Source: an uncultured Pirellulales bacterium (GTDB lineage: Bacteria > Planctomycetota > Phycisphaerae > Sedimentisphaerales > Anaerobacaceae). Taken from it: a DNA stretch of 33,044 nucleotides. Position 1 is the stretch's first letter. Each line of letters begins with the position of its first letter. Under the pieces are notes generated by a model. It ran no database searches. It was not told the DNA's origin and saw nothing but the letters and a program-made list of their open reading frames with translations. This document shows, piece by piece, positions 5,820-31,822 of the stretch. Position numbers and translations under genes: made by a program. The stretch lies in assembly GCA_964559025.1 (NCBI GenBank), contig CAZLIO010000001.1:1-33044 (forward strand). Reading direction: 5' to 3'.

Positions 5820-6128
5820 ATGGAAGTTTATACAAAAACATTTCAAACGCCAAATGGCCTGGTTGAAGGAGTGCAGACCAAATGGGCCGGATTCAATATT
5901 CTGTTGGTCACCGGCTCTAAAGGTTTTTTGGCTTGTCCTGCGATTGATGTTGATGCCTGCGAGCGTTACGGCGTAGCCGCGGCAATAGCCGAAAGCACGC
6001 CGGACAATCCCATAGGTACACTGGAACGTTTCCCGAACCGGAATATAACAAAGGCAAACGCAAAAGCCCAGACCTTAGGTATCAAAGAAGGTATGAGAGT
6101 CAGCGATGCCTTTGCTCTTATCGCATAA
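5820..6128 (+). CDS. DUF1805 (YunC-like) protein
   Basis: 102 aa. The C-terminus LGIKEGMRVSDAFALI and the central GFLACPAIDV match my memory of B. subtilis YunC (GYIMCGALDV ... LGIKVGMSGREALLKM). SD AAGGAAAG lies upstream. Confidence 0.65.
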   Translation: MEVYTKTFQTPNGLVEGVQTKWAGFNILLVTGSKGFLACPAIDVDACERYGVAAAIAESTPDNPIGTLERFPNRNITKANAKAQTLGIKEGMRVSDAFALIA

Positions 6129-6174
6129 GCTCATTAGACACTTGGAAATATCCTTACAGAAACAGGAGATGATT

Positions 6175-18419: not shown

Positions 18420-19895
18420 ATGGCGGAAATAAAAAAATATATCGCCGTTGACCTTGGCGCCGAGAGCGGCAGAGTGATGCTTGGCTCGGTTTCGGCACGG
18501 AAACTTGTTCTCGAAGAAATCCATCGTTTCGATAATGGGCCGATTGAAGAGCACGGCTCGCTGCGCTGGGATTTTGACAGGCTGTTTTACGAAGTTAAGT
18601 CCGGTATCAGCAAAGCGACAAGAGCGGCAGGCGCGCAGGTATGGGGCATCGGCGTCGATAGCTGGGGCGTAGATTTCGGCCTGCTCGACGTCGATGGCAA
18701 ACTCGTTGAGAATCCTTTTCACTATCGCGACAGCCAGACCAACGGGATGAAGGAAAGGGCGTTTGAGATGATGAGCAAACGCGACATTTAAGAAAACACC
18801 GGCGTGCAGTTTATGCAGCTAAACAGCGTTTATCAGCTGCTCGCAATGCGTCTGAATTATTCGATTGCCTTAGCCAAAGCTAATAATCTGATTTTCATTG
18901 CTGATTTGGTTTCGTACTTTCTGTGCGGCAAGATTTTCGCAGAATACAGTCTTGCCAGCACATCACAATTTATGGATATGAGGACAGGCCAATGGTCCAA
19001 AGAGGTCCTGGATAGATTGTCTCTGCCGATTCACATCATGCCGAAAATCGTCGAGCCCGGGACCGTTGTGAGCCAGTTGTCCGGCAGGATTGGAATAGAG
19101 CTCCGCTGTGGGCCAATTCCGGTTATTGCTATCGGCTCACACGATACTGCTTCAGCCGTCGTCGCTGTGCCCGCTGCCGGGAGTGCTAATTGGGCGTATC
19201 TTTCATCGGGAACCTGGTCCCTTATGGGCGTTGAAGTGCCGAAGGCAATTGTCAATGATAAAACCTTTGCATACGAGTTCACAAATGAAGGCGGAGTTGA
19301 AAAAACGATTCGGCTTCTCAAAAACATAATGGGACTATGGCTCATGCAGGAATGCAGGAGGCAATGGCAGCGTGAGGGGACCGACCTGTCCTATGCGGAC
19401 CTGGCGGCTTTGGCGGAAAAAGCCGAACCGTTTGCCAGTCATATTGACGTTGATTACAGCGGATTTCTTGCACCCGGTGATATGCCGAAGAGAATTAACG
19501 ATTACCTGACAGAGACCGGCCGGAATCCAATCGACGATAAAGGGCAAATGATAAGAACGATACTGGAGAGCCTGGCCTTAAAGTATCGTTCCATAATGGA
19601 AGCTATCGAAGATGCTACGGGAAATACGATTGAGATATTGCATATTGTCGGCGGCGGAATACAAAATGAGCTGCTCTGCCAATTCACGGCCAATGCCCTC
19701 GGCAAGAAGGTAATCACCGGCCCGATTGAGGCAACGGCCAGCGGCAATATCCTGATGCAGGCCAAGGCCACAGGACAGATACAATCTCTGGCCCAGGCCA
19801 GAGAGATTGTCCGCAATTCATTTGAGATGAAAGAATATCAGCCGCAGGATGCCTCACTCTGGGATGAACAATACAAAAAAGTGCATGGCTCGTAA
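18420..19895 (+). pseudogene. rhaB: Rhamnulokinase (FGGY family) interrupted by a single in-frame TAA at 18789-18791
   Basis: The ORFs 18219-18791 and 18804-19895 are in the same frame. The joined product is collinear with E. coli RhaB as I remember it (AVDLGA.SGRV, GIDSWGVDF, YRDSRT, KRDI[Y]..TG.QF, SHDTASAV, LSSGTWSL, NEGG, LKNIMGLWL, HIVGGG). SD AAGGAG precedes ATG 18420. Confidence 0.85.
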
Positions 19896-19932: not shown

Positions 19933-21276
19933 TTGATTGCAGAACTCGAAAGCAGATTAGATAGTTTCGACCCCAACGAAAGAAAGCAGGCCCTGACGGC
20001 ACTCTGTGAGAAAGTCCGGGCAGGTGAAATCACTTCGCCAAGATCCGGCACAGATGTTAATCTGCACTGTCATACCTTTTTCTCTTATAATACTTATGGC
20101 TATTCGCCGAGCAAATTTGCCTGGTTAGCCCGCAAAGCCGGGTTGGCCGTTGCAGAAGTAGTGGATTTTGATGTGTTGGATGCTTTGGAAGAGTTCCTTG
20201 CGGCAGCAAGGATGCTCGGTCTGAAGGCCTGTGCCGGTCTGGAAACCAGAGTCTTTGTACCGGAATTTGCCACCAGAGTAATGACATCGCCCGGTGAGCC
20301 GGGTATCACGTACCATATGGGAGTAGGGTTTCCGAGAGCCACACTGGGCGGTGAGCAAAAACAGTTCCTGCTGAATCTTCGCCAAACTGCACAGCAGAGG
20401 AATCAGGATTTGATGGGACGGGTGAATCAGCACTTAAAGCCGGTGGAGCTGAATTACGAAAAAGACGTGCTTGTTCTGACGCCGGGCGGCAACGCTACGG
20501 AGAGGCATATGTGTCTTGCCTATGTACGTAAGGCAAAGGAAATCTTCGGCGATGGAGATAAGCTTATAAAGTTCTGGTCTGAGAAGCTGGGAGTTGAGAT
20601 TGAATCGTTGGCATTGCCCCAGGGCAGAGAATTGCTGAATACGATTCGAGCGAAAACAATGAAACGCGGCGGCGTCGGGTATGTGCTGCCGGATAAAGGC
20701 TCATTTCCACTGATGGCTGATACCAACCGGTTTTTATTTGAGGCTGGCGCAATTCCAACTTTGACTTGGCTGGACGGCACCAGCGAAGGTGAAAGAGACA
20801 TAGAAGAGCTTTTAGATGTAGCTATGAGCACCGGCGCAGCGGCTATCAACGTTATCCCCGACCGCAATTATACGCCCGGAGCCAAAGGCGAAAAGCTTCA
20901 GAACCTCTACCAGGTGGTGGAATTAGCCCAAAAGCTGCATTTGCCGGTTGTAGAGGGAACAGAGATGAACAGCCCGGGACAGAAATTTGTTGACAACTTC
21001 GATACGGCGGAGCTGGAGCCGCTGGTGCCGGTATTTCTCAAAGGCGCCCACATCGTTTACGCCCATTCGGTGCTTCAACAGAAATGCGGCCTTGGCTATA
21101 CGAGCGACTGGGCAAAGAAAAACTTTAAAAGCGCTGCGGACAAAAACGAATTCTTCCAGCAGCTTGGAAGCTCACTTGAGCCACAGGACGAAGATAAACT
21201 TAGCACTTTAAGTGAGGACGTAACCGCTAAGGAAATATTGGACAAAGTGACCCGTGACTTGAAGCAAGAAGGGTGA
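19933..21276 (+). CDS. PHP-domain-like metal-dependent hydrolase, function unknown
   Basis: DVNLHCHTFFSYNTYGYSP...GLAVAEVVDFD resembles PHP motif I/II. The only in-frame start after stop 19909 is TTG 19933. Confidence 0.45.
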   Translation: MIAELESRLDSFDPNERKQALTALCEKVRAGEITSPRSGTDVNLHCHTFFSYNTYGYSPSKFAWLARKAGLAVAEVVDFDVLDALEEFLAAARMLGLKACAGLETRVFVPEFATRVMTSPGEPGITYHMGVGFPRATLGGEQKQFLLNLRQTAQQRNQDLMGRVNQHLKPVELNYEKDVLVLTPGGNATERHMCLAYVRKAKEIFGDGDKLIKFWSEKLGVEIESLALPQGRELLNTIRAKTMKRGGVGYVLPDKGSFPLMADTNRFLFEAGAIPTLTWLDGTSEGERDIEELLDVAMSTGAAAINVIPDRNYTPGAKGEKLQNLYQVVELAQKLHLPVVEGTEMNSPGQKFVDNFDTAELEPLVPVFLKGAHIVYAHSVLQQKCGLGYTSDWAKKNFKSAADKNEFFQQLGSSLEPQDEDKLSTLSEDVTAKEILDKVTRDLKQEG

Positions 21277-21286
21277 GGGACAAGTT

Positions 21287-22948
21287 ATGGCAGTTTTACC
21301 GAAAACGCAATATGCTGTGCAGTTAGTTGGGCCGGATGAGCTTGTCCTGAATAAGTCCAAGGAGGTTTTTCCGCCGGGCAGGCATCAGATTCTTTGCCGG
21401 GTCGAGGCGGTTGGACTTTGTTTTTCCGACCTTAAATTACTAAAGCAATTTTCCTCACATGTCCGCAAGAGCAAAATTGTTTCCGGCATTGATCTTGAAA
21501 TACTCAAGGAGATACCCAGCTATGTCCCCGGCGAAGCGCCGACAATACCCGGCCACGAAACTGTAGTCAGAATTGAGGCGGTTGGCCCCGCGGTGGAAAA
21601 TTTTAAGCCCGGCCAGCGTTTCCTTGTACAGACGGATTATCGCTGGGTGCGCACCGCCAGTTCCAACGCGGCATTCGGATACAATTTCGAAGGCGCTCTT
21701 GCCGAGTATGTGCTGATGGACGAAAGGGTCATAACCACACCGCAGGGCGACTCGATGCTTTTACCCGTCGGCGAGGAGCTTTCCGGCTCGGCTGTTGCTC
21801 TGGTAGAGCCGTGGGCCTGCGTTGAGGATGCCTATGTATCCGCCGAACGTACGAGTTTGAAAATAGATGGCCAGATGCTCATCGTTGCTGATACTGATGT
21901 AACTGAAAATACTTTTCAGAATCTGTTTAGTAGCTATGGAAGACCGGCTAAAATAACCTGGCTTTCAGAGGAGCCAATACTGGCTGAATTGGAGGCAGCC
22001 GCAGACAGGGCCGCAAGCATATCGGCGCTTATCGATGCCGGCTATGACGACATAATCTATTTTGGCTCTGATGCTAAGGTTGTTGAAGTATTGTTTGCAA
22101 AAGTTGCTTTGAATGGTATTCTCAATATCGTCCTTTGTGGCGACAGATTCGGCAGAGATGTTGTTACTACGGTTGGGCGGGTTCACTATGGTGGTATTCG
22201 AATAGTGGGTACTACAGGCTCGGACCCGGCTGAGTCTATGAAAGTGATTCCCGATACCGATGAAATTCGTCCCGGTGACAGGATTAATATTGTCGGAGCG
22301 GGCGGCCCGATGGGTATGATGCACGTCATACGAAACATCTGTCAGGGCGTCGAAGGCGTGAGCGTTTTTGCTTCCGACGTGGATGACAATCGGCTGGCCA
22401 CACTAACAAAAATTGCCAGGCCTTTAGCCGAGAAATATGATGTTACGTATGAGGCATACAATCCCTTGAAAGAAAAGGTTACCGAGGCATTTGACTACAC
22501 CGCTTTGATGGCGCCGATACCTGCTCTGGTTGCCGCTTCGGTGCATAGCGCCGCAGAACGGGGTTTAGTAAACATATTTGCCGGCATTCCCGCGACGGTT
22601 ACCGGCAAGGTTGACCTTGATGCTTATATAGAAAAGCGATTGTATTTCATCGGGACCAGCGGCTCAACTCTGGAGGATATGAAACGAATGCTGCAAAAAG
22701 CCGAATCCGGACGGCTTGATACAAACCTCAGCGTCGCGGCTGTTTGCGGGCTTGCCGGTGCGACCGACGGCATTCGAGCGGTTGAGAACCGTTCGATAGC
22801 AGGTAAGATTGTTGTTTACCCGGCCTGTAAAGATTTGCCGCTGCTGACGCTTGAGAAGATGAACGAAAAGATGCCAAAAGTTGCTGAGTGTCTAAACGAT
22901 GGCTTGTGGACCAGACAGGCCGAACTGAAACTTCTGGAAATGTATTAA
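21287..22948 (+). CDS. Long (553 aa) zinc-type medium-chain dehydrogenase/reductase (MDR) family oxidoreductase
   Basis: The GroES-like N-terminus has RVEAVGLCFSDL and PGHE. The Rossmann motif is VGAGGPMG. It is about 200 aa longer than a typical MDR, with an insert between the catalytic and nucleotide-binding parts. Confidence 0.7.
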   Translation: MAVLPKTQYAVQLVGPDELVLNKSKEVFPPGRHQILCRVEAVGLCFSDLKLLKQFSSHVRKSKIVSGIDLEILKEIPSYVPGEAPTIPGHETVVRIEAVGPAVENFKPGQRFLVQTDYRWVRTASSNAAFGYNFEGALAEYVLMDERVITTPQGDSMLLPVGEELSGSAVALVEPWACVEDAYVSAERTSLKIDGQMLIVADTDVTENTFQNLFSSYGRPAKITWLSEEPILAELEAAADRAASISALIDAGYDDIIYFGSDAKVVEVLFAKVALNGILNIVLCGDRFGRDVVTTVGRVHYGGIRIVGTTGSDPAESMKVIPDTDEIRPGDRINIVGAGGPMGMMHVIRNICQGVEGVSVFASDVDDNRLATLTKIARPLAEKYDVTYEAYNPLKEKVTEAFDYTALMAPIPALVAASVHSAAERGLVNIFAGIPATVTGKVDLDAYIEKRLYFIGTSGSTLEDMKRMLQKAESGRLDTNLSVAAVCGLAGATDGIRAVENRSIAGKIVVYPACKDLPLLTLEKMNEKMPKVAECLNDGLWTRQAELKLLEMY

Positions 22949-22969: not shown

Positions 22970-24154
22970 ATGGAACCGCTAACGAAACTAATCAGAAGAT
23001 TCTCAAAGCGAATGAAAAGATGTGATGTTTGGTTGGTTTGTACGCTATGGTTGGTTGCTTTTTTGATGGTCGGCTGTGAAGAGCAACAATCAGGATTCAG
23101 CGGCCTGGAAATGGGGATGGGGAATCTGGCGCGTTTGTCCTCTGCCGAGACGCGTTCGATCAGTCCGGAGAATTTCACCGGCGAAAAGGGCAAGGGAGGA
23201 ATGGCAACAGAGGGTACCGGCGCAAGGGCAGCCCGTGAATTGGGGCAGGGCTGGAAAGTCTCCCCCTCGGTCAGGATTACGCCGGGCCAGACCTTCGTAA
23301 TGGCGGACGTCGAAGGCTGCGGCGCCATTCAGCATATATGGATGACCCCGACCGGAAACAATCGCTTTAACATTTTGCGGATTTACTGGGATGGTGAAGA
23401 AAAACCCTCTGTGGAATGCCCGGCGGGGGACTTTTTCGCCTGCGGTATGGGTCAGTATGTCGGTGTCAACTCCATGGCGGTCTGTGTCAATCCGAAGAGC
23501 GGATTTAACTGTTACTGGGTAATGCCGTTTCGCAAAAGCTTTAAGATTACTATGACGAATATCGATGCCAAGCCAATGGTACTGTATTACCAGATAGACT
23601 ACACGCTGACTGATGTCCCGAAAGACGCGGCTTATTTGCACGCCCAGTTTCGTCGGGTAAATCCACTTCCCGACAAGCAGGATTATACCATTCTTGAGGG
23701 CGTGCGGGGAAAAGGGCACTACGTTGGAACTTATATGACCTGGGGCTCAAACAGTCCCGGCTGGTGGGGTGAAGGTGAAATTAAGTTCTTTATGGATGGT
23801 GACACAAAATTTCCCACGATTTGTGGGACCGGTACGGAAGATTACTTCTGCGGCTCTTATGGTTTCAGCAAATTCCAGGGCAGGGGGTATGAGGAATTCA
23901 GCAATCCTTACACGGGGATGCCGCAGGTTATAGAGTCCGAGACGCAGCCGCGTTTCGGGCTGTACCGCTGGCATATTATGGACCCGGTCAGGTTTGAAAG
24001 TGACCTGAAGGTAACGATGCAGGCGCTGGGCTGGAAGAGTGAGGGAAGGTATCTGCCTCTAAAAGATGACCTTTCTTCGGTTGCGTTCTGGTATCAAGCC
24101 GAGCCTCATGCGCCGTTTCCGAAATTACCGGACAAAGACTCTCTGAAAAATTGA
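22970..24154 (+). CDS. DUF2961 / GH172-family glycoside-hydrolase-like lipoprotein
   Basis: The lipobox is LMVGC. Motifs present are GAIQHIWMT, RIYWDGE, NCYWVMPF, GWWGEGE and CGTGTEDYF. Confidence 0.75.
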   Translation: MEPLTKLIRRFSKRMKRCDVWLVCTLWLVAFLMVGCEEQQSGFSGLEMGMGNLARLSSAETRSISPENFTGEKGKGGMATEGTGARAARELGQGWKVSPSVRITPGQTFVMADVEGCGAIQHIWMTPTGNNRFNILRIYWDGEEKPSVECPAGDFFACGMGQYVGVNSMAVCVNPKSGFNCYWVMPFRKSFKITMTNIDAKPMVLYYQIDYTLTDVPKDAAYLHAQFRRVNPLPDKQDYTILEGVRGKGHYVGTYMTWGSNSPGWWGEGEIKFFMDGDTKFPTICGTGTEDYFCGSYGFSKFQGRGYEEFSNPYTGMPQVIESETQPRFGLYRWHIMDPVRFESDLKVTMQALGWKSEGRYLPLKDDLSSVAFWYQAEPHAPFPKLPDKDSLKN

Positions 24155-24197: not shown

Positions 24198-25466
24198 ATG
24201 GCAGATACAAATGAAATCGAAAAAGCATACGAGCAGGCAAAGCAGCGTTATGCCGAGCTGGGCGTTGATACCGATGAGGCAATGGAGCGGCTGAGCAGCA
24301 CGGCGATATCGCTGCACTGCTGGCAGGGGGATGACGTCGGGGGATTTGAAAGTGACGAAGGCCTCAGCGGCGGCGGCATAATGGCCACGGGTACATATCC
24401 CGGCAAGGCAAGAACAGCCGATGAGCTGCGGGCGGATTTGGAAAAGACGTTGAGCCTGATACCGGGTAAGCATCGGCTGAATCTGCACGCGATGTACGCA
24501 GAAACCAAAGGCAAGTTCGAGCGCAACGAATTGACCGCCGAGCATTTTACGGCGTGGATTGACTGGGCGAAGGCGAACGGCCTGGGAATGGATTTTAACG
24601 GCACGTTCTTTTCGCATCCGAAGGCCGAGAGCGGTTTCACGCTGTCCAGCGCGGACGAAGGGATACGGCGCTTCTGGGTAGAGCACGGAATCGTGTGCCG
24701 GGAAATCGGTGCGGCGATGGGAAAGGAATTAGGCACACCCTGTGTCACAAACTTGTGGATTCCAGACGGATATAAAGATATACCGGTTGACAGAAAAGGA
24801 CCTCGCCAGCGGCTTAAAAAGTCACTCGATGAGATATTCGCCGAACCGATGGACCGAAGCTGCCTTCTGGATGCCGTGGAGAGCAAGCTCTTCGGTATAG
24901 GCTCGGAAAGTTATGTCGTCGGCTCACACGAGTTTTACCTGGGCTATGCCATCGAAAATAAAACGCTGCTGTGCCTGGACACGGGACATTTTCATCCGAC
25001 GGAAGTTGTCTCCGACAAAATATCATCGGTGCTGACTTTTCTGGATGAGATTCTGCTTCATGTCAGCAGGGGCGTGCGGTGGGACAGCGACCACGTGGTT
25101 GTTCTCTCGGACGAGCTGCGGGCCATAACCGAACAGATAGTGCGGGGCGATTATCTTAAGAGGGTGCACATCGGCCTTGATTTTTTTGACGCCAGCATTA
25201 ACCGCATAGCGGCCTGGGTAATAGGGACGCGCTGTATGATAAAGGCGCTTTTGATCGCCCTCTTGGAGCCGGCGGAGAAGCTCCGCGAGACAGAGCTGGA
25301 CGGTGACTACACTGCACGTTTGGCGATGCTTGAAGAGCTTAAGACAATGCCCTTCGGGGCGGTCTGGGATTACTACTGCACAAAGCAGGATGTCCCGCCG
25401 GGACCGGACTGGTTGAAAGAAGTGAGTGACTACGAGACCAAGGTGACAAACTTAAGGCAAGGTTAA
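24198..25466 (+). CDS. rhaA: L-rhamnose isomerase
   Basis: It is near-collinear with E. coli RhaA as I remember it: [17 protein letters not shown]...[79 protein letters not shown]. Confidence 0.95.
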
Positions 25467-25494: not shown

Positions 25495-27219
25495 ATGGCA
25501 GCAGACAGCGAAAGTGGCGCTATAAAGGGAATGGATTTACTTTATGAATTTGAGCGTGAGCCGGTCTCGAAAAACAAGCTTCAGCCCGGCAAACATTTTG
25601 CGGGCGTTTTTGCCGGCGAGCACGTCGCAGGTACCGAGTTCGTCATAGGAGCGCTGTTTGTCGCCTGGGGCGCAAGCGCCTTTGACGTATTCGTAGGGCT
25701 GCTTATTGGTAACCTGATGGCCGTGCTGACCTGGACATTCGTATGCGCTCCGATAGCCGTTCGGACCCGGCTGACGTTGTACTGGTATCTTCGCAGGGTC
25801 GCCGGGCCGGTTACTACAACGATTTATAATGTTCTCAATGCCGTGTTGTTCTGTATCCTGGCCGGGTGTATGATTACGGTCTCGGCCTCGGCGGTTCGCA
25901 TCCCGTTCGGCATCGAGGAGCAAACGGGCTGGTTCCCGACGGACATAAGATTCGTTCTGGTTGTAATCGGCGTCGGTGCGGTTGTGGTTACTCTGGCGAT
26001 TCTGGGCTTCAAGAAGCTGGCACAATTTGCGGAGGTCTGCTCGCCCTGGATGTTTCTGATGTTCATAGCCGGAGGAGTTGCCATGCTGCCCGGCCTGGCG
26101 GCCCAGGAGCTCGGCCATAAAATCGGCAGTTTTCAGGATTTCTGGACACTGGCAAACAAGTCGGTTTGGACGGGCGTGGCGCCGGCGGGCAATCCACAAA
26201 TTACATTCTGGCAGGTGGCCGCCTTTGCGTGGATTTGTAATCTGGCGATGCACGGCGGGCTGTCGGATATGGCGCTTCTGCGCTACGCCAAGAAGTCATC
26301 TTATGGTTTGTATTCGGCCTTCGGAATGTTTCTCGGTCATTATTTGGCGTGGATTTGTGCGGGCATTATGGGTGCGGCGACGGCGATTATCTTAGGTAAG
26401 ACTATGGGTGAGCTTGATGCCGGCGGGGTTGCCTCGCAGGCCCTCGGTGTCTCGGGAATCATTGCCGTGGTTATTGCCGGCTGGACGACTTCGAATCCGA
26501 CGTTATACCGGGCGGGACTGGCCTTTCAGGCGGTAACTCCCGGCTGGCCTCGATGGCTGGTAACACTTGCTGCCGGGGCCATTACCACGGCAATCGCGTG
26601 CTCTCCGTTTGTATTTACGAAACTGCTTGATTTCGTCGGATACTATGGCCTGCTGCTTATGCCCGTCGGGGCGATTGTTTTTGTTGAGCATTGGATATTT
26701 CCCAAAATCGGCTTGACCCAATTCTGGGCCTCACGAAAGAAGCTGTTAGTGAGCTGGCCGGCACTGCTTAGCTGGGGCATTGCCATCGCGACGGCTTTGA
26801 TCCTCGAGCAAACCGGAATTCTGCACCTGTTCTTCTTGTTTGTGCCGGTCTGGGTGTTGACAGCGGTGCTCTATATCGTTTTTGCTTCGATGGCGGGCGC
26901 CCGTGAGAAGTTTGATGAGCAGGCGGAAGAACAAGTTCCCCGGAACGTCAATCACGAATCATCAGCGAGTGGGTCTGAAGTAGGTAGCTGGACTGAACAG
27001 AAGAACAATATCGGCAAAGACCCCGTGTTGTGGGCATCCGGGATTATTGCGGCCGCGGCACTGCTTACGTGTTTAGTTCTGCCGATTTGGGTGTTTGTTA
27101 CCGGTGGCGGTCAATACGAACAGAACTTCGCTGCTTTCAAAAATATACTTATCTGGCCGACCTTGATTTACTTTGTCACCGGTACGATATGGGCCGTAAA
27201 AAGAAACAAAGCGGATTGA
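25495..27219 (+). CDS. NCS1/CodB-like secondary permease with an appended C-terminal 2-TM module. It is a candidate sugar (rhamnose?) transporter.
   Basis: It has about 12 TM helices. The N-terminal pattern is EREPVS...K.FAGVFAGEHVAGTEFVIGA. A hydrophilic linker at aa ~470-510 is followed by two more helices. The substrate is inferred from context only. Confidence 0.45.
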   Translation: MAADSESGAIKGMDLLYEFEREPVSKNKLQPGKHFAGVFAGEHVAGTEFVIGALFVAWGASAFDVFVGLLIGNLMAVLTWTFVCAPIAVRTRLTLYWYLRRVAGPVTTTIYNVLNAVLFCILAGCMITVSASAVRIPFGIEEQTGWFPTDIRFVLVVIGVGAVVVTLAILGFKKLAQFAEVCSPWMFLMFIAGGVAMLPGLAAQELGHKIGSFQDFWTLANKSVWTGVAPAGNPQITFWQVAAFAWICNLAMHGGLSDMALLRYAKKSSYGLYSAFGMFLGHYLAWICAGIMGAATAIILGKTMGELDAGGVASQALGVSGIIAVVIAGWTTSNPTLYRAGLAFQAVTPGWPRWLVTLAAGAITTAIACSPFVFTKLLDFVGYYGLLLMPVGAIVFVEHWIFPKIGLTQFWASRKKLLVSWPALLSWGIAIATALILEQTGILHLFFLFVPVWVLTAVLYIVFASMAGAREKFDEQAEEQVPRNVNHESSASGSEVGSWTEQKNNIGKDPVLWASGIIAAAALLTCLVLPIWVFVTGGGQYEQNFAAFKNILIWPTLIYFVTGTIWAVKRNKAD

Positions 27220-27234
27220 GAGAAAGGAAAAATT

Positions 27235-28119
27235 ATGCCTGAAAAAGATTCCGCAAAAGGAGAAAAAAAATACTACGAAGATGTTCCTATGAAGTCTGAG
27301 GGATTTTTCTTAAAGGGTGCAGGCTCTCTTGACTGGGGGATGAAGAACCGGCTTTCGAGGATATTTAATCCCGATACCGGCCGAACGGTAATGTTCGCGA
27401 TTGACCACGGCTACTTTCAGGGGCCGACGACAGGACTTGAGCGGATTGACCTGACCATCGTGCCGCTGATGTACTACGCCGACGCTATAATGCTGACCCG
27501 TGGGATTCTGCGAACCTCGGTTCCGCCCACCCTGAACAAGCCGGTCGTGATGCGCTGCAGCGGCGGGCCGAGCATACTCAAGGAGCTCTCGAACGAGGAA
27601 TTAGCCGTTGATATAGAGGACGCGATTCGGATGAACGTCGCGGCGATTACCCTGCAGGTCTTTATCGGCGGCGAGTTCGAGACCCGTTCGGTACATAATA
27701 TGACCCGGCTGGTGGATATGGGGCTGCGTTACGGTATTCCGACTATGGCGGTTACGGCGGTGGGCAAAGATATGGTCCGGGATGCAAGATATTTCCGCCT
27801 GGCCTGCCGCATCTGTGCTGAGCTGGGTGCTCAGATTATCAAGACCTATTATGTTCCGGAAGGCTTTAAGACGATAACGGCTTCCTGTCCGGTTCCGATT
27901 GTCATGGCCGGAGGCAAGAAAATCCCCGTGCTCGACGCCCTGACAATGGCGTACAATGCGGTCCAGGAAGGTGCATCGGGCGTGGACATGGGACGCAACA
28001 TTTTCCAGTCTGATGCGCCCAAGGCGATGATGCAGGCGATTCGCAAGGTTGTTCATGAAGATATGAAGCCTGCCGAGGCCCTCGAACTGTACGAAGCCCT
28101 CAAAAACGAAAAAGATTAA
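27235..28119 (+). CDS. LsrF-type class I aldolase-fold enzyme (DhnA/FbaB/LsrF family)
   Basis: [70 protein letters not shown] (Schiff-base Lys), [12 protein letters not shown] and [14 protein letters not shown] all closely track E. coli LsrF as I remember it. Confidence 0.85.
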
Positions 28120-28281: not shown

Positions 28282-28593
28282 ATGGTAAGTTTCAATGAAA
28301 TTGAAAATGTTGCCAGAAAAATTGGAATGCAAATCAATGCCAAGGCAGTGATTCTTTTCGGCTCATATGCTCGAAAACAACCCGGAAAGTATAGCGATGT
28401 TGACTTTTTGGTGATTGCCGAAAGTGATTTGCCAAGACACAAAAGAAGCCGCCAGCTGCACCTTATGTTCAAGCCGTATCCTTTTCCGATGGACATTCTG
28501 GTTTATACTCCCAAGGAAGTGGAAAATGAAAGTGAATTCGAGCTTTCATTCATCTCCACCGTACTACGGGAGGGGAAAAAGCTGTATGGATAA
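28282..28593 (+). CDS. Minimal nucleotidyltransferase (MNT) antitoxin of a HEPN-MNT pair
   Basis: 103 aa with LFGSYARKQ...SDVDFLV (the GS...DxD NTase motif). Confidence 0.8.
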   Translation: MVSFNEIENVARKIGMQINAKAVILFGSYARKQPGKYSDVDFLVIAESDLPRHKRSRQLHLMFKPYPFPMDILVYTPKEVENESEFELSFISTVLREGKKLYG

Positions 28594-28987
28594 AAAGCAT
28601 GAATATGCCAAGCGATGGTTCGATAAGGCAAAAAGTGATCTATTAGATGCTGACAATAATCTTGCCGCTGATAAAGTGCCTTATGACACGGTCTGCTTTC
28701 ACTGCCAGCAGGCCGCTGAAAAACTGCTCAAGGGTTTCCTTGTCGCGCACGGCTGCGAATATCCGATAACACATAACCTGTTTGTTATCTTGGACAAGGT
28801 TGTTGAATATGACGGGCTTGCCGAATCGTTGCGAGAGGCGCTTGCTTTGCTTAACCCTTACGCTGTAGAAGTTCGCTATCCTGGAGATGAATTAACCTTG
28901 ACGATGGACAACGCTGCTGAAGCACGGCAGGCGGCACAAGAGGTCCTTGAGTGGACGAAATCAAGGTTTGCACAGCTTTTTGAATGA
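28586..28987 (+). CDS. HEPN-domain toxin of a HEPN-MNT pair
   Basis: 133 aa with FHCQQAAEKLLKGFL, ITHNL and EVRYP, which are typical of HEPN. Its ATG overlaps the MNT stop by 8 nt (ATGGATAA). Confidence 0.8.
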   Translation: MDKKHEYAKRWFDKAKSDLLDADNNLAADKVPYDTVCFHCQQAAEKLLKGFLVAHGCEYPITHNLFVILDKVVEYDGLAESLREALALLNPYAVEVRYPGDELTLTMDNAAEARQAAQEVLEWTKSRFAQLFE

Positions 28988-29339: not shown

Positions 29340-30536
29340 ATGAAGAATAATACATCAGATAAATATTCTTCGAGGAAATTAGCTCAAATAGCGCCGATTG
29401 TTCGCGGGCTTCTGGCAGAGGAGACAGGTAACCAGGACATACCCTATGAACCCATTATCTTAAAATCTCTGACGAGTAAAGAAGCTATTGATTTTGCCGG
29501 TTCATCGAAAAATGCCGAAGCGAACGAGTATCCGGCACCCTTGAGCAAATCTCAGAAGCCGCCGCTTTTTTTAGATACAATGGAGTATGATACCGAACCG
29601 GAGAAACTCCGTAAGCAATTGTGCGATTGGATTTCGGATTATTCACTAAAGTATAAGGGCAAGCCTGAAATCGTATGTCTTCGTGAGCTGGGTATACTTT
29701 ATGTTAGCCGAGAAGATGATGCAACTGATTTGCCTCTTAAGAATAAGGTTGCGCTGGTAACCGGTGCCGCAGGAGCCATCGGTTACGGCATTTGCTGTGG
29801 GCTGCTGGAAAAGGGCTGCCATCTCGTCGCCACTGACCTTCCGGGCAAAAAGCTTGACGATTTCACGGCTGACCTGAAGCAATCAGCAGGCGACCGAGTA
29901 ATAGGAATTCCAATCGATGTTACTGATGAAAAGTCTGTTGTCCGAGGTTTTGAAAGTGTCATTCTGACCTGGGGCGGAATTGATATTGTGGTTGTAAATG
30001 CCGGCATCCCGCTGGTCTCATATTTGAAAGATATAGAGCTCGATGACTTTTGCAAGCTCGAAAAAGTAAACGTGGAAGGTACTTTTCTAACGCTTCGTGA
30101 AATCTCCCACCACTTTATATTGCAGAATACCGGTGGTGACATTATTATCGTCTCCACCAAGAACGTTCCCAGCCCAGGCGCCGGTTTTGGCGCCTACAGC
30201 GTCACCAAAGCGGCGGCCCACCAGCTGGGACGAATTGCCAGTATAGAGCTGGCGCAATACGGGGTTCGCGTTAATATGGTGGCGCCGGACGCGGTATTTT
30301 CCGAGGGTAAGTACAAGTCCGGCCTTTGGGAAGAAATAGGCCCCAGCCGAATGAAGGCGCGGGGACTCGATAAAGACCAGTTGCAGGAGTATTACCGAAA
30401 CAGGAATCTGCTGAAAGCTAAGGTTACGGGCCGACACGTTTCCAACGCCGTACTGTTCTTTGCCACGCGCCAGACACCTACAACCGGCGTTACAATTCCC
30501 GTGGACGGGGGTTTGCCGGACGCCACACCAAGATAG
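29340..30536 (+). CDS. Short-chain dehydrogenase (RhaW-like lactaldehyde dehydrogenase module) preceded by ~130 aa homologous to the middle region of bifunctional RhaEW
   Basis: The Rossmann motif is VALVTGAAGAIG, followed by NAG and YSVTKAA (YxxxK). The C-terminus ITVDGG..A resembles the B. subtilis YuxG C-terminal half. The N-terminal RKLAQIAPIVRGLLAEE resembles the YuxG mid-region RKQILAGIMPVIRGAVSEE. Confidence 0.75.
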   Translation: MKNNTSDKYSSRKLAQIAPIVRGLLAEETGNQDIPYEPIILKSLTSKEAIDFAGSSKNAEANEYPAPLSKSQKPPLFLDTMEYDTEPEKLRKQLCDWISDYSLKYKGKPEIVCLRELGILYVSREDDATDLPLKNKVALVTGAAGAIGYGICCGLLEKGCHLVATDLPGKKLDDFTADLKQSAGDRVIGIPIDVTDEKSVVRGFESVILTWGGIDIVVVNAGIPLVSYLKDIELDDFCKLEKVNVEGTFLTLREISHHFILQNTGGDIIIVSTKNVPSPGAGFGAYSVTKAAAHQLGRIASIELAQYGVRVNMVAPDAVFSEGKYKSGLWEEIGPSRMKARGLDKDQLQEYYRNRNLLKAKVTGRHVSNAVLFFATRQTPTTGVTIPVDGGLPDATPR

Positions 30537-30613
30537 GCCTGTTGCCGAGGCTGGGAAATCAACAGGGAAGGGACGGAACACATAATAAAGGTATTGCCGA
30601 AGATACGAAAGGA

Positions 30614-31822
30614 ATGATTCAAATGGACAAAGCGCTTGCTGAGCTAATAAAAATATCGAGAGGGACAGGAGGAGACCCGACGCTCGTTCAAGGTGGAGGC
30701 GGCAATACATCTGTGAAAACAGGAGACGGCAAATATATGTATATCAAGGCCAGCGGCACGGCCCTGAAGGATATGAATGAAAAACAAGGTTGGCGAAGGC
30801 TGCGGGTCGATTCGGCCCTGTCAATTGTAAGGAATAAGTCGATAGCACAGCTCGATACCCAAAAAAGAGAAATTGAGGTGGTAAACAGGCTGCTCCTTGC
30901 CTGCGATGATAACGTTAAAACAATTGCCCGGCCTTCGGTGGAGGCACACCTGCACGCCTGTCTGGATAAGTGCGTGATTCATCTACATCCGAGCGCCGCC
31001 GGGGCTTATGTAAATGCGAAAAATGGAAAGACCAAGCTCGAAAAGCTTTTCAAGGATGAAAGTTACTCGCCGCTTTGGGTCCCTTACACCGACCCCGGCT
31101 ACATGCTTGCTAAAAGGATAGCCGGGCTGGTGGATGGCTATCACAAGCAGTTCGGCGAGAAGCCTGCGATTCTTTTCCTCGAAAAGCACGGGCTTTTCAT
31201 TACGGCAAAAACCGCCACCGGCGCTTTGCGGCTCGTGCGCAGGGTGATGAATCGCTGCAACAGCAAGCTGAAACAGCCGAAGCCCGGAAGCGCCAAGTCC
31301 GTTAAGCGGGAAATAATAAGCGATGTAAAGCTATGCATTGAAAAGGCATATTTCGAGGCCACCGGCAAGCCCGCTGCGATATGTTATTATTACAACGATG
31401 CTATTGCGGATTTTTTTCGTCAAAGAGACGCAAAGAAAATGCTAAAGGGCTCTTTGACCCCGGACGAGCTGGTTTACGCAAATGGGCCCGCGATGTGGGT
31501 CGAGCTGAAAAAAAGTAATAAGTCACGTTCGGATGTAATGCTGGAGGGCATTTCGAAAAGTATTGCCGATAAGCTGAAACGGCAGATCGATACCGGCAGG
31601 AAGATTTCTGCGGCGTTTTTGGTTAAAGGTGTCGGCCTTTTTGTCGCGGGCACCGAAAAGATTGCACCGACAGTGCGGGACATTGTTCTGTACTCGATTT
31701 TCATTCGCACCAATGCGAATCGCATGGGCGGAATTTGCATCTTGAATAAACGGCAGGAAGATTTCATCAACAACTGGGAATCCGAGGCCTTCCGCAAAAA
31801 ATTAGCAACCGGCAAAACCTGA
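30614..31822 (+). CDS. Class II aldolase/adducin-domain protein (RhaE-like rhamnulose-1-phosphate aldolase module, including the middle region)
   Basis: Motifs present are VQGGGGNTSVK, EAHLH...HLHP (metal His), LEKHGLF, GVGLFVAGTEK and NNWESEAF. The start is ATG 30614 or 30623 (SD GAAAGGA); the TTG 30542 extension is unlikely. Confidence 0.75.
   Translation: MIQMDKALAELIKISRGTGGDPTLVQGGGGNTSVKTGDGKYMYIKASGTALKDMNEKQGWRRLRVDSALSIVRNKSIAQLDTQKREIEVVNRLLLACDDNVKTIARPSVEAHLHACLDKCVIHLHPSAAGAYVNAKNGKTKLEKLFKDESYSPLWVPYTDPGYMLAKRIAGLVDGYHKQFGEKPAILFLEKHGLFITAKTATGALRLVRRVMNRCNSKLKQPKPGSAKSVKREIISDVKLCIEKAYFEATGKPAAICYYYNDAIADFFRQRDAKKMLKGSLTPDELVYANGPAMWVELKKSNKSRSDVMLEGISKSIADKLKRQIDTGRKISAAFLVKGVGLFVAGTEKIAPTVRDIVLYSIFIRTNANRMGGICILNKRQEDFINNWESEAFRKKLATGKT

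What the first reader, a model, noticed from the sequence alone, without database searches (positions are those of the whole stretch)
27235..28119. An LsrF-type (CoA-dependent thiolase) enzyme sits inside a rhamnose locus, suggesting an oxidative thiolytic route from rhamnulose-1-P to DHAP + lactoyl-CoA
Seen in sequence: the 294-aa product tracks E. coli LsrF almost motif for motif, including the Schiff-base Lys in GAQIIKTYY. No lsrK, lsrG, lsrR or lsrACDB genes are nearby. Its neighbours are rhaA, rhaB, two dehydrogenases (MDR 21287-22948, SDR 29340-30536) and a permease. Established: E. coli LsrF is not a simple aldolase. It transfers the acetyl group of 3-hydroxy-2,4-pentanedione-5-phosphate to CoA, giving DHAP + acetyl-CoA. 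Inference: oxidising L-rhamnulose-1-phosphate at C4 would give P-O-CH2-CO-CHOH-CO-CHOH-CH3, the exact lactyl homologue of the LsrF substrate. An LsrF-like enzyme could then yield DHAP + lactoyl-CoA. That would bypass toxic lactaldehyde and conserve a thioester. As far as I know, no such branch has been described for 6-deoxyhexose catabolism.
Basis: partly seen in the sequence, partly recalled or inferred. Interest (0 to 1): 0.7.

Follow-up and report, generated by a model that had tools for sequence, protein, structure and literature searches.

The report
LsrF-type thiolase in a rhamnose operon
A close relative of the E. coli enzyme that destroys the AI-2 signal sits inside a rhamnose-utilisation operon of an anaerobic planctomycete, almost always next to the same sugar dehydrogenase, which suggests an undescribed way of splitting sugar phosphates into DHAP plus an acyl-CoA.

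Summary
ORF 27235-28119 (+) encodes a full-length LsrF-family protein: NCBIfam LsrF thiolase model 503 bits (cutoff 297), 60.8% identical and gapless to E. coli LsrF. All ten published catalytic and ligand residues are kept, including LsrF-specific Asp251, and the catalytic Tyr of true aldolases is absent. It is the seventh gene of a tightly packed operon (rhaB-PHP-MDR-GH172-rhaA-permease-lsrF). No lsr gene occurs in the window or in 80 related loci.

- The SDR (29340-30536) and the next gene (30542-31822, class II aldolase-like) form a split RhaEW-type pair, so a canonical rhamnulose-1-P cleavage route may coexist.
- rhaB carries a private in-frame TAA.
- The gene's tightest partner is the SDR (55 of 57 assessable loci, at least 8 phyla), not rhaA/rhaB (24 and 21 of 80).

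rha genes join LsrF and the SDR in two lineages with different gene orders. The RhaEW paper reports no DHAP without NAD+, which fits oxidation before cleavage.

Best reading (about 0.4): the SDR oxidises C4 of rhamnulose-1-P and LsrF thiolyses the product to DHAP + lactoyl-CoA. This is unproven. Lactoyl-CoA is already known in planctomycete microcompartment pathways, so only the route would be new.

The parts
27235..28119 (+). LsrF-family CoA-dependent thiolase homologue (294 aa), the subject of the finding
   Evidence: NF006081 at 503 bits, full length. 60.8% identical and gapless to E. coli LsrF; D57, H58, K203, Y205, G226, G227, D251, M252, G253 and R254 all conserved. Asp251 is present and the aldolase catalytic Tyr is absent. 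Starts 15 bp after the permease stop.
29340..30536 (+). RhaW-type short-chain dehydrogenase (398 aa; the SDR domain is residues ~131-398, preceded by a 130-aa extension with no detectable homology). Proposed C4 dehydrogenase and conserved partner of LsrF.
   Evidence: NF006194 'bifunctional aldolase/SDR' C-terminal half at 391 bits; Pfam adh_short. TGAAGAIG, NAG and YSVTK motifs. Nearest solved structures are secondary-alcohol dehydrogenases: 3-hydroxybutyrate, sorbitol-6-P, xylitol and butanediol DH. A homologue lies within 4 kb of LsrF in 55 of 57 assessable loci.
30542..31822 (+). RhaE-type class II aldolase-like protein (likely start near 30620). It is the split counterpart of the N-terminal ~410 aa of fused RhaEW-type enzymes.
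   Evidence: Pfam Aldolase_II at 52 bits; NF006195/6196/6190 N-terminal halves at 94-101 bits. Aligns to residues ~17-445 of fused 650-715-aa proteins. Carries an SVE motif at 132-134, HLH motifs at 136-138 and 147-149, and KHG at 215-217, consistent with the class II aldolase Glu/His metal site by my positional inference. Present in 39 of 80 loci.
18420..19895 (+). rhaB rhamnulokinase, interrupted by an in-frame TAA at 18789-18791 (codon 124)
   Evidence: TIGR02627 rhamnulokinase is the best family for both halves, at 112 and 313 bits. Every relative aligned at that codon (13 loci) has TAT or TAC (Tyr).
19933..21276 (+). 447-aa protein with a weak PHP (metal-dependent phosphoesterase) N-terminal signature; role unknown
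   Evidence: Pfam PHP E = 7e-4, below the gathering score. Only weak PDB matches. Travels with MDR553 in 24 loci.
21287..22948 (+). 553-aa divergent Zn-type medium-chain dehydrogenase with a ~150-aa insertion; second candidate sugar(-phosphate) dehydrogenase
   Evidence: Pfam ADH_N; GLCFSD and PGHE motifs; weak matches to IolM and threonine DH. In 28 of 80 loci, including loci without rha genes (L027, L045, L065, L066).
22970..24154 (+). DUF2961 protein (the family CAZy classes as GH172, from my own knowledge), probable glycosidase
   Evidence: Pfam PF11175 at 318 bits; in 8 loci.
24198..25466 (+). rhaA, L-rhamnose isomerase
   Evidence: NF002203 at 706 bits (cutoff 572); Pfam RhaA at 686 bits.
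25495..27219 (+). 574-aa polytopic membrane protein, presumed sugar permease
   Evidence: No family hit. Hydrophobic sequence. Conserved position between rhaA and lsrF in 26 loci.
28282..28987 (+). MntA-like nucleotidyltransferase plus HEPN toxin-antitoxin pair, inserted between lsrF and the SDR; not part of the pathway
   Evidence: NF047752 MntA antitoxin E = 2e-6. The same pair is present in 7-8 related loci. In 31 loci (ORF clustering) an Rpe-like epimerase lies between LsrF and the SDR.

Best explanation
The gene encodes a genuine LsrF-family enzyme: a Schiff-base lysine TIM barrel which, in E. coli, transfers the acyl group of a 3-hydroxy-2,4-dione phosphate to CoA. Here it has been recruited to sugar catabolism and works as a pair with the conserved RhaW-type SDR. 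Proposed sequence: RhaA and RhaB make L-rhamnulose-1-phosphate. The SDR oxidises its C4 hydroxyl with NAD+, giving 1-phospho-3,5-dihydroxy-2,4-hexanedione, the lactyl homologue of P-HPD. The LsrF-like enzyme forms a Schiff base at C2, CoA attacks C4, and the C3-C4 bond breaks to give DHAP + L-lactoyl-CoA. Where present, the Rpe/LsrE-like epimerase would set the C3 configuration. Lactoyl-CoA could then yield ATP through phosphotransacylase and kinase, as in the PV microcompartment pathway. Shown: family membership, active-site conservation, operon membership, absence of lsr genes, and the cross-phylum LsrF-SDR linkage. Inferred: the SDR's site of oxidation, the identity of the substrate, the use of CoA, and the fate of lactoyl-CoA.
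For: (1) LsrF equivalog at 503 bits, 60.8% identity with no gaps, and ten of ten published catalytic/ligand residues invariant in all 88 family members examined. (2) The active site is LsrF-type, not aldolase-type. Asp251 is present where MJ0400 and T. tenax FBPA have Ala, and their catalytic Tyr aligns to a gap or Ala175. (3) It is the last gene of a seven-gene run with 10-43 bp gaps that includes rhaB, rhaA and a permease. (4) A homologous SDR lies within 4 kb, on the same strand as LsrF wherever found, in 55 of 57 loci with enough sequence. These span Planctomycetota, Verrucomicrobiota, Lentisphaerota, Chlorobi, Elusimicrobia, Hydrogenedentota, Latescibacterota and Proteobacteria. In L038 the two genes overlap by 4 bp and end the operon. 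(5) rhaA and rhaB flank LsrF-Rpe-SDR in a different order in a Lentisphaerales MAG, L074 (RhaA 687 bits), so the cluster was assembled independently. (6) The SDR's nearest solved relatives oxidise secondary alcohols of sugars and sugar phosphates, not aldehydes. (7) For the characterised RhaEW fusion, no DHAP or lactate formed without NAD+, and lactaldehyde was never tested as a substrate, which fits oxidation preceding cleavage. (8) An LsrE-like epimerase accompanies LsrF in 34 loci, as in the Salmonella lsr operon where the LsrF substrate is a diketone. (9) Cultured Shinella and Sagittula carry an FGGY kinase, a GlpD-like dehydrogenase, LsrF and aldolase II/SDR in sugar-transport loci. This shows the same logic of a kinase plus dehydrogenase(s) encoded alongside LsrF.
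Against: There is no biochemical evidence for any step. The locus also encodes a RhaE-like class II aldolase protein with apparent Glu/His metal-site motifs. Together with the SDR it could convert rhamnulose-1-P to DHAP + lactate with no need for LsrF. The LsrF+SDR pair occurs in many loci with no rha genes (bare pairs in L040, L043, L049, L057 and L058; with E1/E2, PfkB and FBA-II elsewhere; with a RuBisCO-like protein in Chlorobi), so its substrate may be something else. No lactoyl-CoA-consuming enzyme is encoded in the window. The MDR553 and PHP proteins, which also track LsrF, have no role in the scheme. Sequence cannot distinguish an acetyl from a lactyl pocket: the clade-specific substitutions (F56I, C87L, N112P, G175A, I224M) were not mapped onto a structure. 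In this particular genome rhaB has a stop codon.
Confidence: 0.4

Rival explanations
1. Same oxidise-then-thiolyse module, different substrate. The SDR and LsrF-like enzyme act on a five-carbon deoxy-ketose phosphate and keep the E. coli substrate P-HPD. Oxidising C4 of 5-deoxyribulose-1-phosphate (from the radical-SAM by-product 5'-deoxyadenosine), or C4 of a 1-deoxypentulose-5-phosphate such as DXP, gives exactly P-HPD, and LsrF then yields DHAP + acetyl-CoA. On this view the placement in the rha operon reflects co-regulation or a side activity.
For: The enzyme is 78-98% identical across at least 8 phyla of mostly anaerobic bacteria, and often occurs as a bare LsrF+SDR pair with no sugar-specific genes, which suggests a housekeeping substrate. 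The active-site residues are identical to those of the acetyl-transferring E. coli enzyme. An Rpe-like epimerase, whose family acts on 2-ketopentose 5-phosphates, is the commonest third gene. In Chlorobi the pair flanks a RuBisCO-like protein, a family known to isomerise methylthio-pentulose phosphates. The chemistry follows from the structures (my inference).
Against: No nucleosidase, MtnK/DrdK-type kinase or MtnA/DrdI-type isomerase was seen among the recurrent neighbours. In the window and about 20 relatives the gene is embedded in a tight operon with a high-scoring RhaA, RhaB and a permease. An independently arranged rhaA/rhaB cluster exists in Lentisphaerales.
Confidence: 0.2
2. Plain class I aldolase. 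The LsrF-like protein cleaves L-rhamnulose-1-phosphate (or another ketose-1-phosphate) directly to DHAP + L-lactaldehyde through its Schiff-base lysine. The SDR then oxidises lactaldehyde to lactate, as RhaW is currently annotated. No CoA is involved.
For: The fold and the Lys203/Asp57 pair are those of class I aldolases, and LsrF was first classified as one. The published assignment of RhaW is lactaldehyde dehydrogenase. Adjacency to the SDR is equally expected if the SDR acts after cleavage.
Against: The site carries the LsrF-specific Asp251 and lacks the proton-donor Tyr of its aldolase relatives. No aldolase product could be detected for E. coli LsrF, and its established activity is CoA-dependent thiolysis (Marques et al. 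2014 PNAS; established knowledge, paper not held here). SDRs of this type oxidise secondary alcohols. A second aldolase-type gene (aldII or FucA-like) is usually present as well, which would make a class I aldolase redundant. An LsrE-like epimerase would have no role.
Confidence: 0.2
3. Ordinary AI-2 processing. The protein degrades phospho-AI-2-derived P-HPD as in E. coli, with lsrK, lsrG and the transporter encoded elsewhere in the genome.
For: It is annotated as LsrF or 'AI-2 aldolase' by NCBI and JGI. It passes the NCBIfam equivalog cutoff.
Against: No lsrG, lsrR, lsrB, lsrC or lsrD lies within 10 kb in any of 80 related loci or in the window. The only LsrK-like hits are distant FGGY kinases at 20-29% identity; those listed coincide with the rhaB positions, except L053's. 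The gene sits 15 bp behind a permease in a sugar operon. Its conserved partners (SDR, aldolase II, epimerase) are not lsr components, apart from the epimerase.
Confidence: 0.05

Closest known systems
E. coli / Salmonella LsrF (3-hydroxy-5-phosphonooxypentane-2,4-dione thiolase, EC 2.3.1.245; PDB 3GKF, 4P2V)
   Same: 60.8% identical with no gaps and the same length. All ten published phosphate-binding and catalytic residues are identical, including the Schiff-base Lys203, Asp57 and the LsrF-specific Asp251. The N-terminal extension is retained. An LsrE-like epimerase is often adjacent, as in Salmonella.
   Different: It is not in an lsr operon: there is no LsrK, LsrG, LsrR or LsrACDB. It lies in a rhamnose operon and is coupled to an SDR. 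It forms a separate, very tight clade with its own conserved substitutions (F56I, C87L, N112P, Y143F, G175A, I224M). The presumed substrate carries a lactyl rather than an acetyl group (inference).
RhaEW (YuxG / Caur_2283), the bifunctional 'rhamnulose-1-phosphate aldolase / lactaldehyde dehydrogenase' (Rodionova et al. 2013, PMC3870299)
   Same: The window's SDR and aldII are homologous to its RhaW and RhaE domains and lie in a rha locus. The overall conversion of rhamnulose-1-P needs NAD+.
   Different: Here the two domains are separate genes in reversed order. The SDR has an extra 130-aa N-terminus. An LsrF-family gene is added, and it is more tightly linked to the SDR than the aldolase-like gene is (LsrF-SDR in 68 of 80 loci, aldII in 39 of 80). 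RhaEW yields lactate; the proposed route yields lactoyl-CoA.
Planctomycetota-Verrucomicrobiota microcompartment (PVM / PV-BMC) fucose-rhamnose pathway
   Same: Same superphylum, same sugars and the same net chemistry: ketose-1-P + NAD+ + CoA gives DHAP + lactyl-CoA + NADH, then lactyl-phosphate and lactate.
   Different: The BMC route cleaves first (class II aldolase) and then oxidises free lactaldehyde with an acylating aldehyde dehydrogenase inside a protein shell. The proposed route oxidises first and cleaves with a thiolase, so no free lactaldehyde and no shell are needed. No shell, PduL or acylating ALDH genes were recognised among the annotated genes of the window or among the recurrent neighbour clusters that I annotated; singleton ORFs in the loci were not scanned.
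Archaeal-type class IA aldolases and ADH synthase (T. tenax FBPA, M. jannaschii MJ0400, FbaB/DhnA)
   Same: Same TIM-barrel family (Pfam DeoC/LacD), the same phosphate-binding glycines and Arg, and the same Schiff-base Lys and general-base Asp.
   Different: Scores are far below their family cutoffs (173-188 bits for ADH synthase; 28-120 bits for the aldolases). Asp replaces Ala at position 251 and the catalytic Tyr is missing.

Membership tests
LsrF family (NCBIfam NF006081, 3-hydroxy-5-phosphonooxypentane-2,4-dione thiolase) | Full-length match to the family model above the curated cutoff | tested here: met
   503 bits against a cutoff of 297, covering 1-291 of 291.
LsrF family (NCBIfam NF006081, 3-hydroxy-5-phosphonooxypentane-2,4-dione thiolase) | Schiff-base Lys203, general-base Asp57 and the phosphate site His58, Gly226, Gly227, Gly253, Arg254 | tested here: met
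   All identical at the same residue numbers, and invariant in 88 family members (residues as defined in PMC2728841).
LsrF family (NCBIfam NF006081, 3-hydroxy-5-phosphonooxypentane-2,4-dione thiolase) | Asp251 beside the catalytic Lys (Ala in the aldolase and ADH-synthase relatives), and absence of their catalytic Tyr | tested here: met
   The window has GVDMGRN where MJ0400 has GVAVGRN and T. tenax FBPA has GIAVGRN. The Tyr of MMYPRG aligns to a gap or Ala175.
LsrF family (NCBIfam NF006081, 3-hydroxy-5-phosphonooxypentane-2,4-dione thiolase) | CoA-dependent acyl transfer from a 3-hydroxy-2,4-dione phosphate (the enzymatic activity itself) | not testable with these tools
   Needs an enzyme assay. 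The activity is known only for E. coli LsrF (Marques et al. 2014; paper not held).
lsr (AI-2 uptake and processing) operon | Co-location with lsrK, lsrR, lsrACDB and lsrG | tested here: not met
   tblastn with the Salmonella Lsr proteins found no lsrG, lsrR, lsrB, lsrC or lsrD in the window or in the 80 loci. LsrK matched only distant FGGY kinases at 20-29% identity. True lsr operons were recovered as positive controls in Salmonella and Lacticaseibacillus.
lsr (AI-2 uptake and processing) operon | lsr genes or luxS present elsewhere in the same genome | not testable with these tools
Class I fructose-bisphosphate aldolase (FbaB/DhnA, archaeal type) and ADH synthase | Match above the family cutoff, plus the catalytic Tyr proton donor | tested here: not met
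   NF040816 120 bits (cutoff 430); NF006704 28 (277); NF005321 36 (420); ADH synthase 173-188 (241-299). The Tyr is absent.
L-rhamnose catabolic operon (RhaA-RhaB phosphorylated pathway) | rhaA and rhaB in the same transcription unit as the gene | tested here: met
   rhaB through lsrF lie on the same strand with 10-43 bp gaps. RhaA scores 706 bits, above its cutoff; rhamnulokinase is the best family for RhaB. The arrangement recurs in about 20 relatives. Caveat: rhaB has an in-frame stop here.
RhaEW-type aldolase/dehydrogenase (partner genes, TIGR02632 / PRK08324 family) | Class II aldolase-like domain plus SDR domain, homologous over their full lengths | tested here: inconclusive
   Both domains are present but as separate genes in reversed order. 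The SDR half scores 391 bits to NF006194 and 204 bits to TIGR02632. The aldolase half scores only 60-101 bits. No full-length cutoff can be met by a split protein.

The most novel reading that the evidence does not exclude
A widespread two-enzyme system (found in at least 8 phyla), a RhaW-type SDR plus an LsrF-family thiolase, cleaves ketose-1-phosphates by oxidising C4 and then thiolysing the resulting 3-hydroxy-2,4-dione to DHAP + acyl-CoA. In this operon that means L-rhamnulose-1-P to DHAP + L-lactoyl-CoA, with no free lactaldehyde and no microcompartment. Two corollaries follow. The 'aldolase then lactaldehyde dehydrogenase' mechanism assigned to RhaEW would really be 'dehydrogenase then beta-diketone cleavage'. 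And the AI-2-degrading LsrF of enterobacteria would be a specialised offshoot of an older sugar-catabolic thiolase family.
Probability: 0.35. Interest if true: 0.8.

Novelty: new variant of a known kind. Interest (0 to 1): 0.66.

Why it matters
If correct, this adds a third way of splitting a sugar phosphate backbone, thiolytic as well as aldol and phosphoketolase-type. It conserves a thioester and avoids a toxic aldehyde, which would explain how anaerobic Phycisphaerae and their relatives can ferment methyl-pentoses from algal and plant polysaccharides without microcompartments. It would also reinterpret a characterised but mechanistically untested enzyme (RhaEW).

There is a practical consequence too. 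Thousands of environmental genes named 'LsrF' or 'AI-2 aldolase' are probably not evidence of AI-2 quorum sensing, although papers do read the annotation that way. The same gene pair flanks the RuBisCO-like protein in green sulfur bacteria MAGs, a protein whose function I recall as still unresolved, so it offers a lead there as well.

Tried and rejected
- **Literature:** nine full-text searches found no paper linking LsrF to rhamnose, RuBisCO-like proteins or lactoyl-CoA formation from rhamnulose. The 2014 PNAS thiolase paper is not held, so the residues contacting the acyl end of P-HPD could not be obtained. The 2009 structure paper gives only the phosphate site and the catalytic residues. 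I therefore could not decide between an acetyl and a lactyl pocket.
- **Promoter and terminator scans:** 10 promoter-like sites against 14 expected, and 20 terminator-like sites against 17 expected. This is no better than shuffled sequence and was not used.
- **Permissive domain scans:** the PHP protein, the permease, the SDR N-terminal extension, the MDR insertion and the aldII C-terminus gave nothing credible. PDB sequence searches for the MDR and PHP proteins gave only generic or marginal hits.
- **The search for homologous proteins:** it returned only relatives at 89% identity or more, so it added no diversity.
- **Structure prediction:** I considered predicting the PHP and MDR proteins but did not run it. 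A fold match would name the superfamily, which is already known, and not the substrate.
- **Rejected reading, FbaB or ADH-synthase clade:** rejected on scores, active-site residues and the tree.
- **Rejected reading, rhaB stop as a lineage feature or recoding site:** every relative aligned at that codon (13 loci, including the closest, L001 and L002) has a Tyr codon there.
Full report
**1. The observation**

The window contains the ORF exactly as described: 27235-28119, + strand, 294 aa. It matches the NCBIfam equivalog model for LsrF (NF006081, 3-hydroxy-5-phosphonooxypentane-2,4-dione thiolase) over the model's whole length at 503 bits, against a curated cutoff of 297. The next-best families all fall below their own cutoffs: ADH synthase at 173-188 bits and archaeal/DhnA-type class I aldolases at 28-120 bits. 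Against solved structures it aligns to E. coli LsrF (3GKF, 3GLC, 4P2V) without a single gap (E = 2e-116). Identity is 60.8% (177/291), and the residue numbering of the two proteins coincides.

**2.

- **A candidate cleavage enzyme.** The gene after the SDR (30542-31822) is a class II aldolase-like protein. It aligns to the N-terminal ~410 residues of the 650-715-aa 'bifunctional aldolase/short-chain dehydrogenase' proteins, and the SDR (29340-30536, residues ~131-398) aligns to their C-terminal domain. Together they form a split, order-reversed version of RhaEW, the enzyme that replaces RhaD in B. subtilis and Chloroflexus (PMC3870299). The locus is therefore not short of a candidate cleavage enzyme.
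- **A broken rhaB.** rhaB is interrupted by an in-frame TAA at 18789-18791. Every relative aligned at that codon (13 loci, including the closest, L001 and L002) has TAT or TAC there, so this is a private nonsense mutation or a sequencing error.
- **An inserted toxin-antitoxin pair.** An MntA-like nucleotidyltransferase/HEPN pair (28282-28987) sits between lsrF and the SDR.
- **Operon structure.** The seven genes rhaB, PHP-like, MDR553, DUF2961, rhaA, permease and lsrF are separated by only 10-43 bp. The gap is 162 bp to the TA pair, 352 bp from there to the SDR, and 83 bp from the SDR to aldII. Consensus promoter and terminator scans were uninformative.

**3. Is it a real LsrF, an aldolase, or something between?**

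All ten residues that the LsrF structure paper names are identical in the window protein and invariant in the 88 family members I aligned. These are Asp57, His58, Lys203, Tyr205, Gly226, Gly227, Asp251, Met252, Gly253 and Arg254.

That paper also points out how LsrF departs from its true-aldolase relatives. It has Asp251 next to the Schiff-base lysine where T. tenax FBPA and MJ0400 have Ala, and it lacks their catalytic Tyr. The window protein shows both LsrF traits. It has GVDMGRN where they have GVAVGRN or GIAVGRN, and the Tyr position aligns to a gap or Ala175.

In a neighbour-joining tree the protein falls in a tight clade with the 80 environmental relatives. The sister group contains both the enterobacterial lsr-operon LsrFs and LsrFs from sugar loci of Shinella and Sagittula. 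The Lacticaseibacillus lsr-operon LsrF, the Bacteroidota LsrFs and a Bacillus one branch more deeply.

**4. Gene-neighbourhood survey**

A scan of one genome per species recovered 80 loci encoding proteins 78-98% identical. Most are Phycisphaerae/Sedimentisphaerales MAGs; the window is closest to L001 and L002. The rest come from Verrucomicrobiota, Lentisphaerales, Chlorobi, Elusimicrobia, Hydrogenedentota, Latescibacterota and Proteobacteria.

Searching the window's neighbours against these loci gave:

| Neighbour | Loci (of 80) |
|---|---|
| SDR | 68 |
| aldII | 39 |
| MDR553 | 28 |
| permease | 26 |
| PHP | 24 |
| rhaA | 24 |
| rhaB | 21 |

Restricted to loci with at least 2.5 kb downstream, 55 of 57 carry the SDR within 4 kb, and every such SDR hit is on the same strand as LsrF. 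In L038, a complete chromosome, lsrF and the SDR overlap by 4 bp and end the operon, with no aldII nearby. The tightest partner of this LsrF is thus the SDR, not the rha genes.

The rha association is nevertheless real and not merely inherited synteny. A Lentisphaerales MAG (L074) has rhaA (687 bits), a FucA-like aldolase, LsrF, an Rpe-like epimerase, the SDR and a rhamnulokinase-like gene, in a quite different order.

No lsrG, lsrR, lsrB, lsrC or lsrD occurs in any locus. The only LsrK-like hits are distant FGGY kinases at 20-29% identity; the few listed coincide with the rhaB positions, and L053's 29% hit is a different FGGY kinase. An epimerase 32-38% identical to Salmonella LsrE is present in 34 loci, usually between LsrF and the SDR. 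In the window that slot holds the TA pair.

**5. Other contexts of the family**

- In cultured bacteria, LsrF-annotated genes occur in true lsr operons (Salmonella, Lacticaseibacillus).
- They also occur behind DhaK-DhaL kinases in Bacteroidota.
- In Shinella and Sagittula they sit in sugar-transport loci that combine an FGGY kinase, a GlpD-like dehydrogenase, LsrF and aldolase II/SDR, fused or as a 397-aa aldolase II alone.
- Among the environmental loci, LsrF-Rpe-SDR is frequently joined to a DeoR regulator, a class II FBA-type aldolase, a PfkB kinase and a PDH/acetoin-dehydrogenase-type E1/E2 set. In Chlorobi a fused aldolase II/SDR and LsrF flank a RuBisCO-like protein.

The common denominator is a kinase that makes a ketose or polyol phosphate, one or more dehydrogenases, and LsrF.

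**6. Mechanistic reasoning**

Established: E. coli LsrF forms a Schiff base at the carbonyl next to the CH2OP group of 3-hydroxy-2,4-pentanedione-5-phosphate and transfers the acetyl group to CoA, giving DHAP (Marques et al. 2014; my own knowledge, restated in PMC8016206).

Inference: any ketose-1-phosphate R-CHOH-CHOH-CO-CH2OP becomes an LsrF-type substrate once its C4 hydroxyl is oxidised.

Three results make this more than an analogy:

- The near-obligate LsrF-SDR adjacency.
- The SDR's closest solved relatives are secondary-alcohol dehydrogenases acting on sugars, sugar phosphates and hydroxy-acids. They are not aldehyde dehydrogenases.
- In the only biochemical study of the SDR's family (RhaEW), activity was measured solely in a coupled assay starting from L-rhamnose. 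[quoted passage not shown] An ordinary aldolase should release DHAP without NAD+, so the result is what one expects if oxidation precedes C-C cleavage.

On this view RhaE-type proteins would cleave the diketone hydrolytically (giving lactate) and LsrF would cleave it thiolytically (giving lactoyl-CoA). The LsrE-like epimerase would adjust the labile C3 centre of the diketone, as it may do for P-HPD in Salmonella.

**7. What argues against, and what remains unexplained**

- No step has been shown experimentally.
- The window encodes a RhaE-like protein with apparent Glu/His metal-site motifs (SVE at 132-134, HLH at 147-149, KHG at 215-217; the assignment is my positional inference). With the SDR it could complete the pathway without LsrF.
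- The LsrF+SDR pair also stands alone or in non-rhamnose contexts, so its ancestral substrate may be different. Oxidising C4 of 5-deoxyribulose-1-P or of a 1-deoxypentulose-5-P gives P-HPD itself. That would make the pair a salvage route for radical-SAM by-products yielding acetyl-CoA. I rate this rival at 0.2.
- The MDR553 and PHP proteins track LsrF even without rha genes (L027, L045, L065, L066) and have no role in the scheme.
- An E1αβ/E2 pair follows aldII directly in L018 and lies a few kb downstream in L001 and L025. Its role is unknown.
- No lactoyl-CoA-consuming gene is in the window.
- Clade-specific substitutions near catalytic residues (F56I, C87L, N112P, G175A, I224M) could reshape the acyl pocket, but I could not map them.

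**8. Comparison with what is known, and novelty**

The protein is a member of the LsrF family by every sequence criterion tested. It is not part of an lsr system (membership test).

The net reaction proposed, ketose-1-P + NAD+ + CoA to DHAP + lactoyl-CoA + NADH, is already achieved in Planctomycetota and Verrucomicrobiota. There a class II aldolase acts first, and an acylating aldehyde dehydrogenase then works inside a microcompartment, followed by lactyl-phosphate and lactate. The product and the energy conservation are therefore not new. What would be new is the order of steps and the enzyme that breaks the C-C bond.

Nine literature searches found no description of LsrF homologues in deoxy-hexose catabolism. 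Among the papers found by the annotation search, the titles and abstracts frame the gene in quorum-sensing terms. I class the finding as a new variant of a known kind.

**9. Verdict**

| Reading | Confidence |
|---|---|
| Observation | confirmed |
| SDR-then-LsrF oxidative thiolysis of rhamnulose-1-P to DHAP + lactoyl-CoA (best explanation) | 0.40 |
| Same module acting on a C5 deoxy-ketose phosphate | 0.20 |
| Plain class I aldolase followed by lactaldehyde oxidation | 0.20 |
| Ordinary AI-2 processing | 0.05 |
| Something not considered | remainder |

Interest is 0.66. The hypothesis is cheap to test, touches a widespread and misannotated gene family, and would revise the mechanism of a characterised enzyme. 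It rests on comparative genomics and chemical logic only.

Noticed in passing
window 18789-18791 (within rhaB, 18420-19895): In-frame TAA at codon 124 of rhamnulokinase. Every relative aligned at that site (13 loci, including the closest, L001 and L002) has TAT or TAC (Tyr). This is a private nonsense mutation or a sequencing/assembly error; every other gene of the operon is intact.
   Followed up: yes
window 28282-28987: An MntA-like nucleotidyltransferase / HEPN toxin-antitoxin pair is inserted between lsrF and the SDR. In 31 related loci (ORF clustering) an Rpe/LsrE-like epimerase lies between LsrF and the SDR. The same TA pair (86-97% identical) recurs at this position in 7-8 related MAGs, sometimes alongside the epimerase (L015).
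   Followed up: partly
L075 7805-12500, L078 7819-12282, L079 (Chlorobi MAGs): In green sulfur bacteria MAGs the order is fused aldolase II/SDR (~705 aa), LsrF-like, RuBisCO-like protein (433 aa; best hits type III RuBisCO, OiaX and MtnW, all below cutoff), then a second SDR. This RuBisCO-like protein's function is, as far as I recall, still unresolved. Its placement between an LsrF thiolase and an SDR suggests a substrate of the keto-pentose/hexose phosphate diketone type.
   Followed up: partly
L018 16430-20176; L001 16827-20533; L025 18138-20384; also L050, L055, L056, L060, L061, L063, L064, L065, L073, L077, L080: A PDH/acetoin-dehydrogenase-type E1 (alpha-beta fused or separate) and E2 recur near LsrF-SDR, with no E3 seen nearby. 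In several phyla they share an operon with a DeoR regulator, a class II FBA-type aldolase and a PfkB kinase. In the window's closest relatives they lie just beyond where the window ends. Their role relative to LsrF is unexplained.
   Followed up: partly
window 19933-22948; L027, L045, L065, L066: A 447-aa protein with only a weak PHP-phosphoesterase signature and a 553-aa Zn-type MDR dehydrogenase with a ~150-aa insertion form a conserved pair. The MDR also sits next to LsrF in loci without rha genes, so it belongs to the LsrF system rather than to rhamnose use as such. No function could be assigned.
   Followed up: partly
L081 7291-9873 (Parabacteroides distasonis); L082 7191-9861 (Aureibacter tunicatorum): In Bacteroidota an LsrF-annotated gene directly follows DhaK-DhaL (two-subunit dihydroxyacetone-kinase-type) genes, with no SDR and no lsr genes. 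This is another non-lsr context, possibly a different way of feeding a small keto-sugar or DPD to LsrF.
   Followed up: no
L085 9001-18870 (Shinella plasmid); L084 1174-11081 (Sagittula plasmid): Cultured alphaproteobacteria carry LsrF with aldolase II/SDR (fused 651 aa, or a 397-aa aldolase II alone), an ABC sugar transporter, an FGGY kinase (best hit xylulokinase, below cutoff) and a GlpD-like flavoprotein dehydrogenase. These are tractable organisms in which the LsrF + dehydrogenase logic could be tested genetically.
   Followed up: partly
window 29340-29729: The first ~130 residues of the SDR have no detectable homology to the fused RhaEW-type proteins or to any Pfam family, yet are conserved in the split-type SDRs of related loci (for example L038 and L074).
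   Followed up: partly
window 1936-3393 and 6106-7413: Two unusual domain fusions lie upstream of the operon: a thioredoxin domain joined to an alkylmercury-lyase (MerB)-like domain, and a xylose-isomerase-like TIM barrel joined to an Ada-type zinc-binding domain.
   Followed up: no
window 25495-27219: The 574-aa polytopic membrane protein in the transporter position matches no Pfam or NCBIfam family. In about half of the related operons a 475-aa protein only 39-47% identical takes its place.
   Followed up: no
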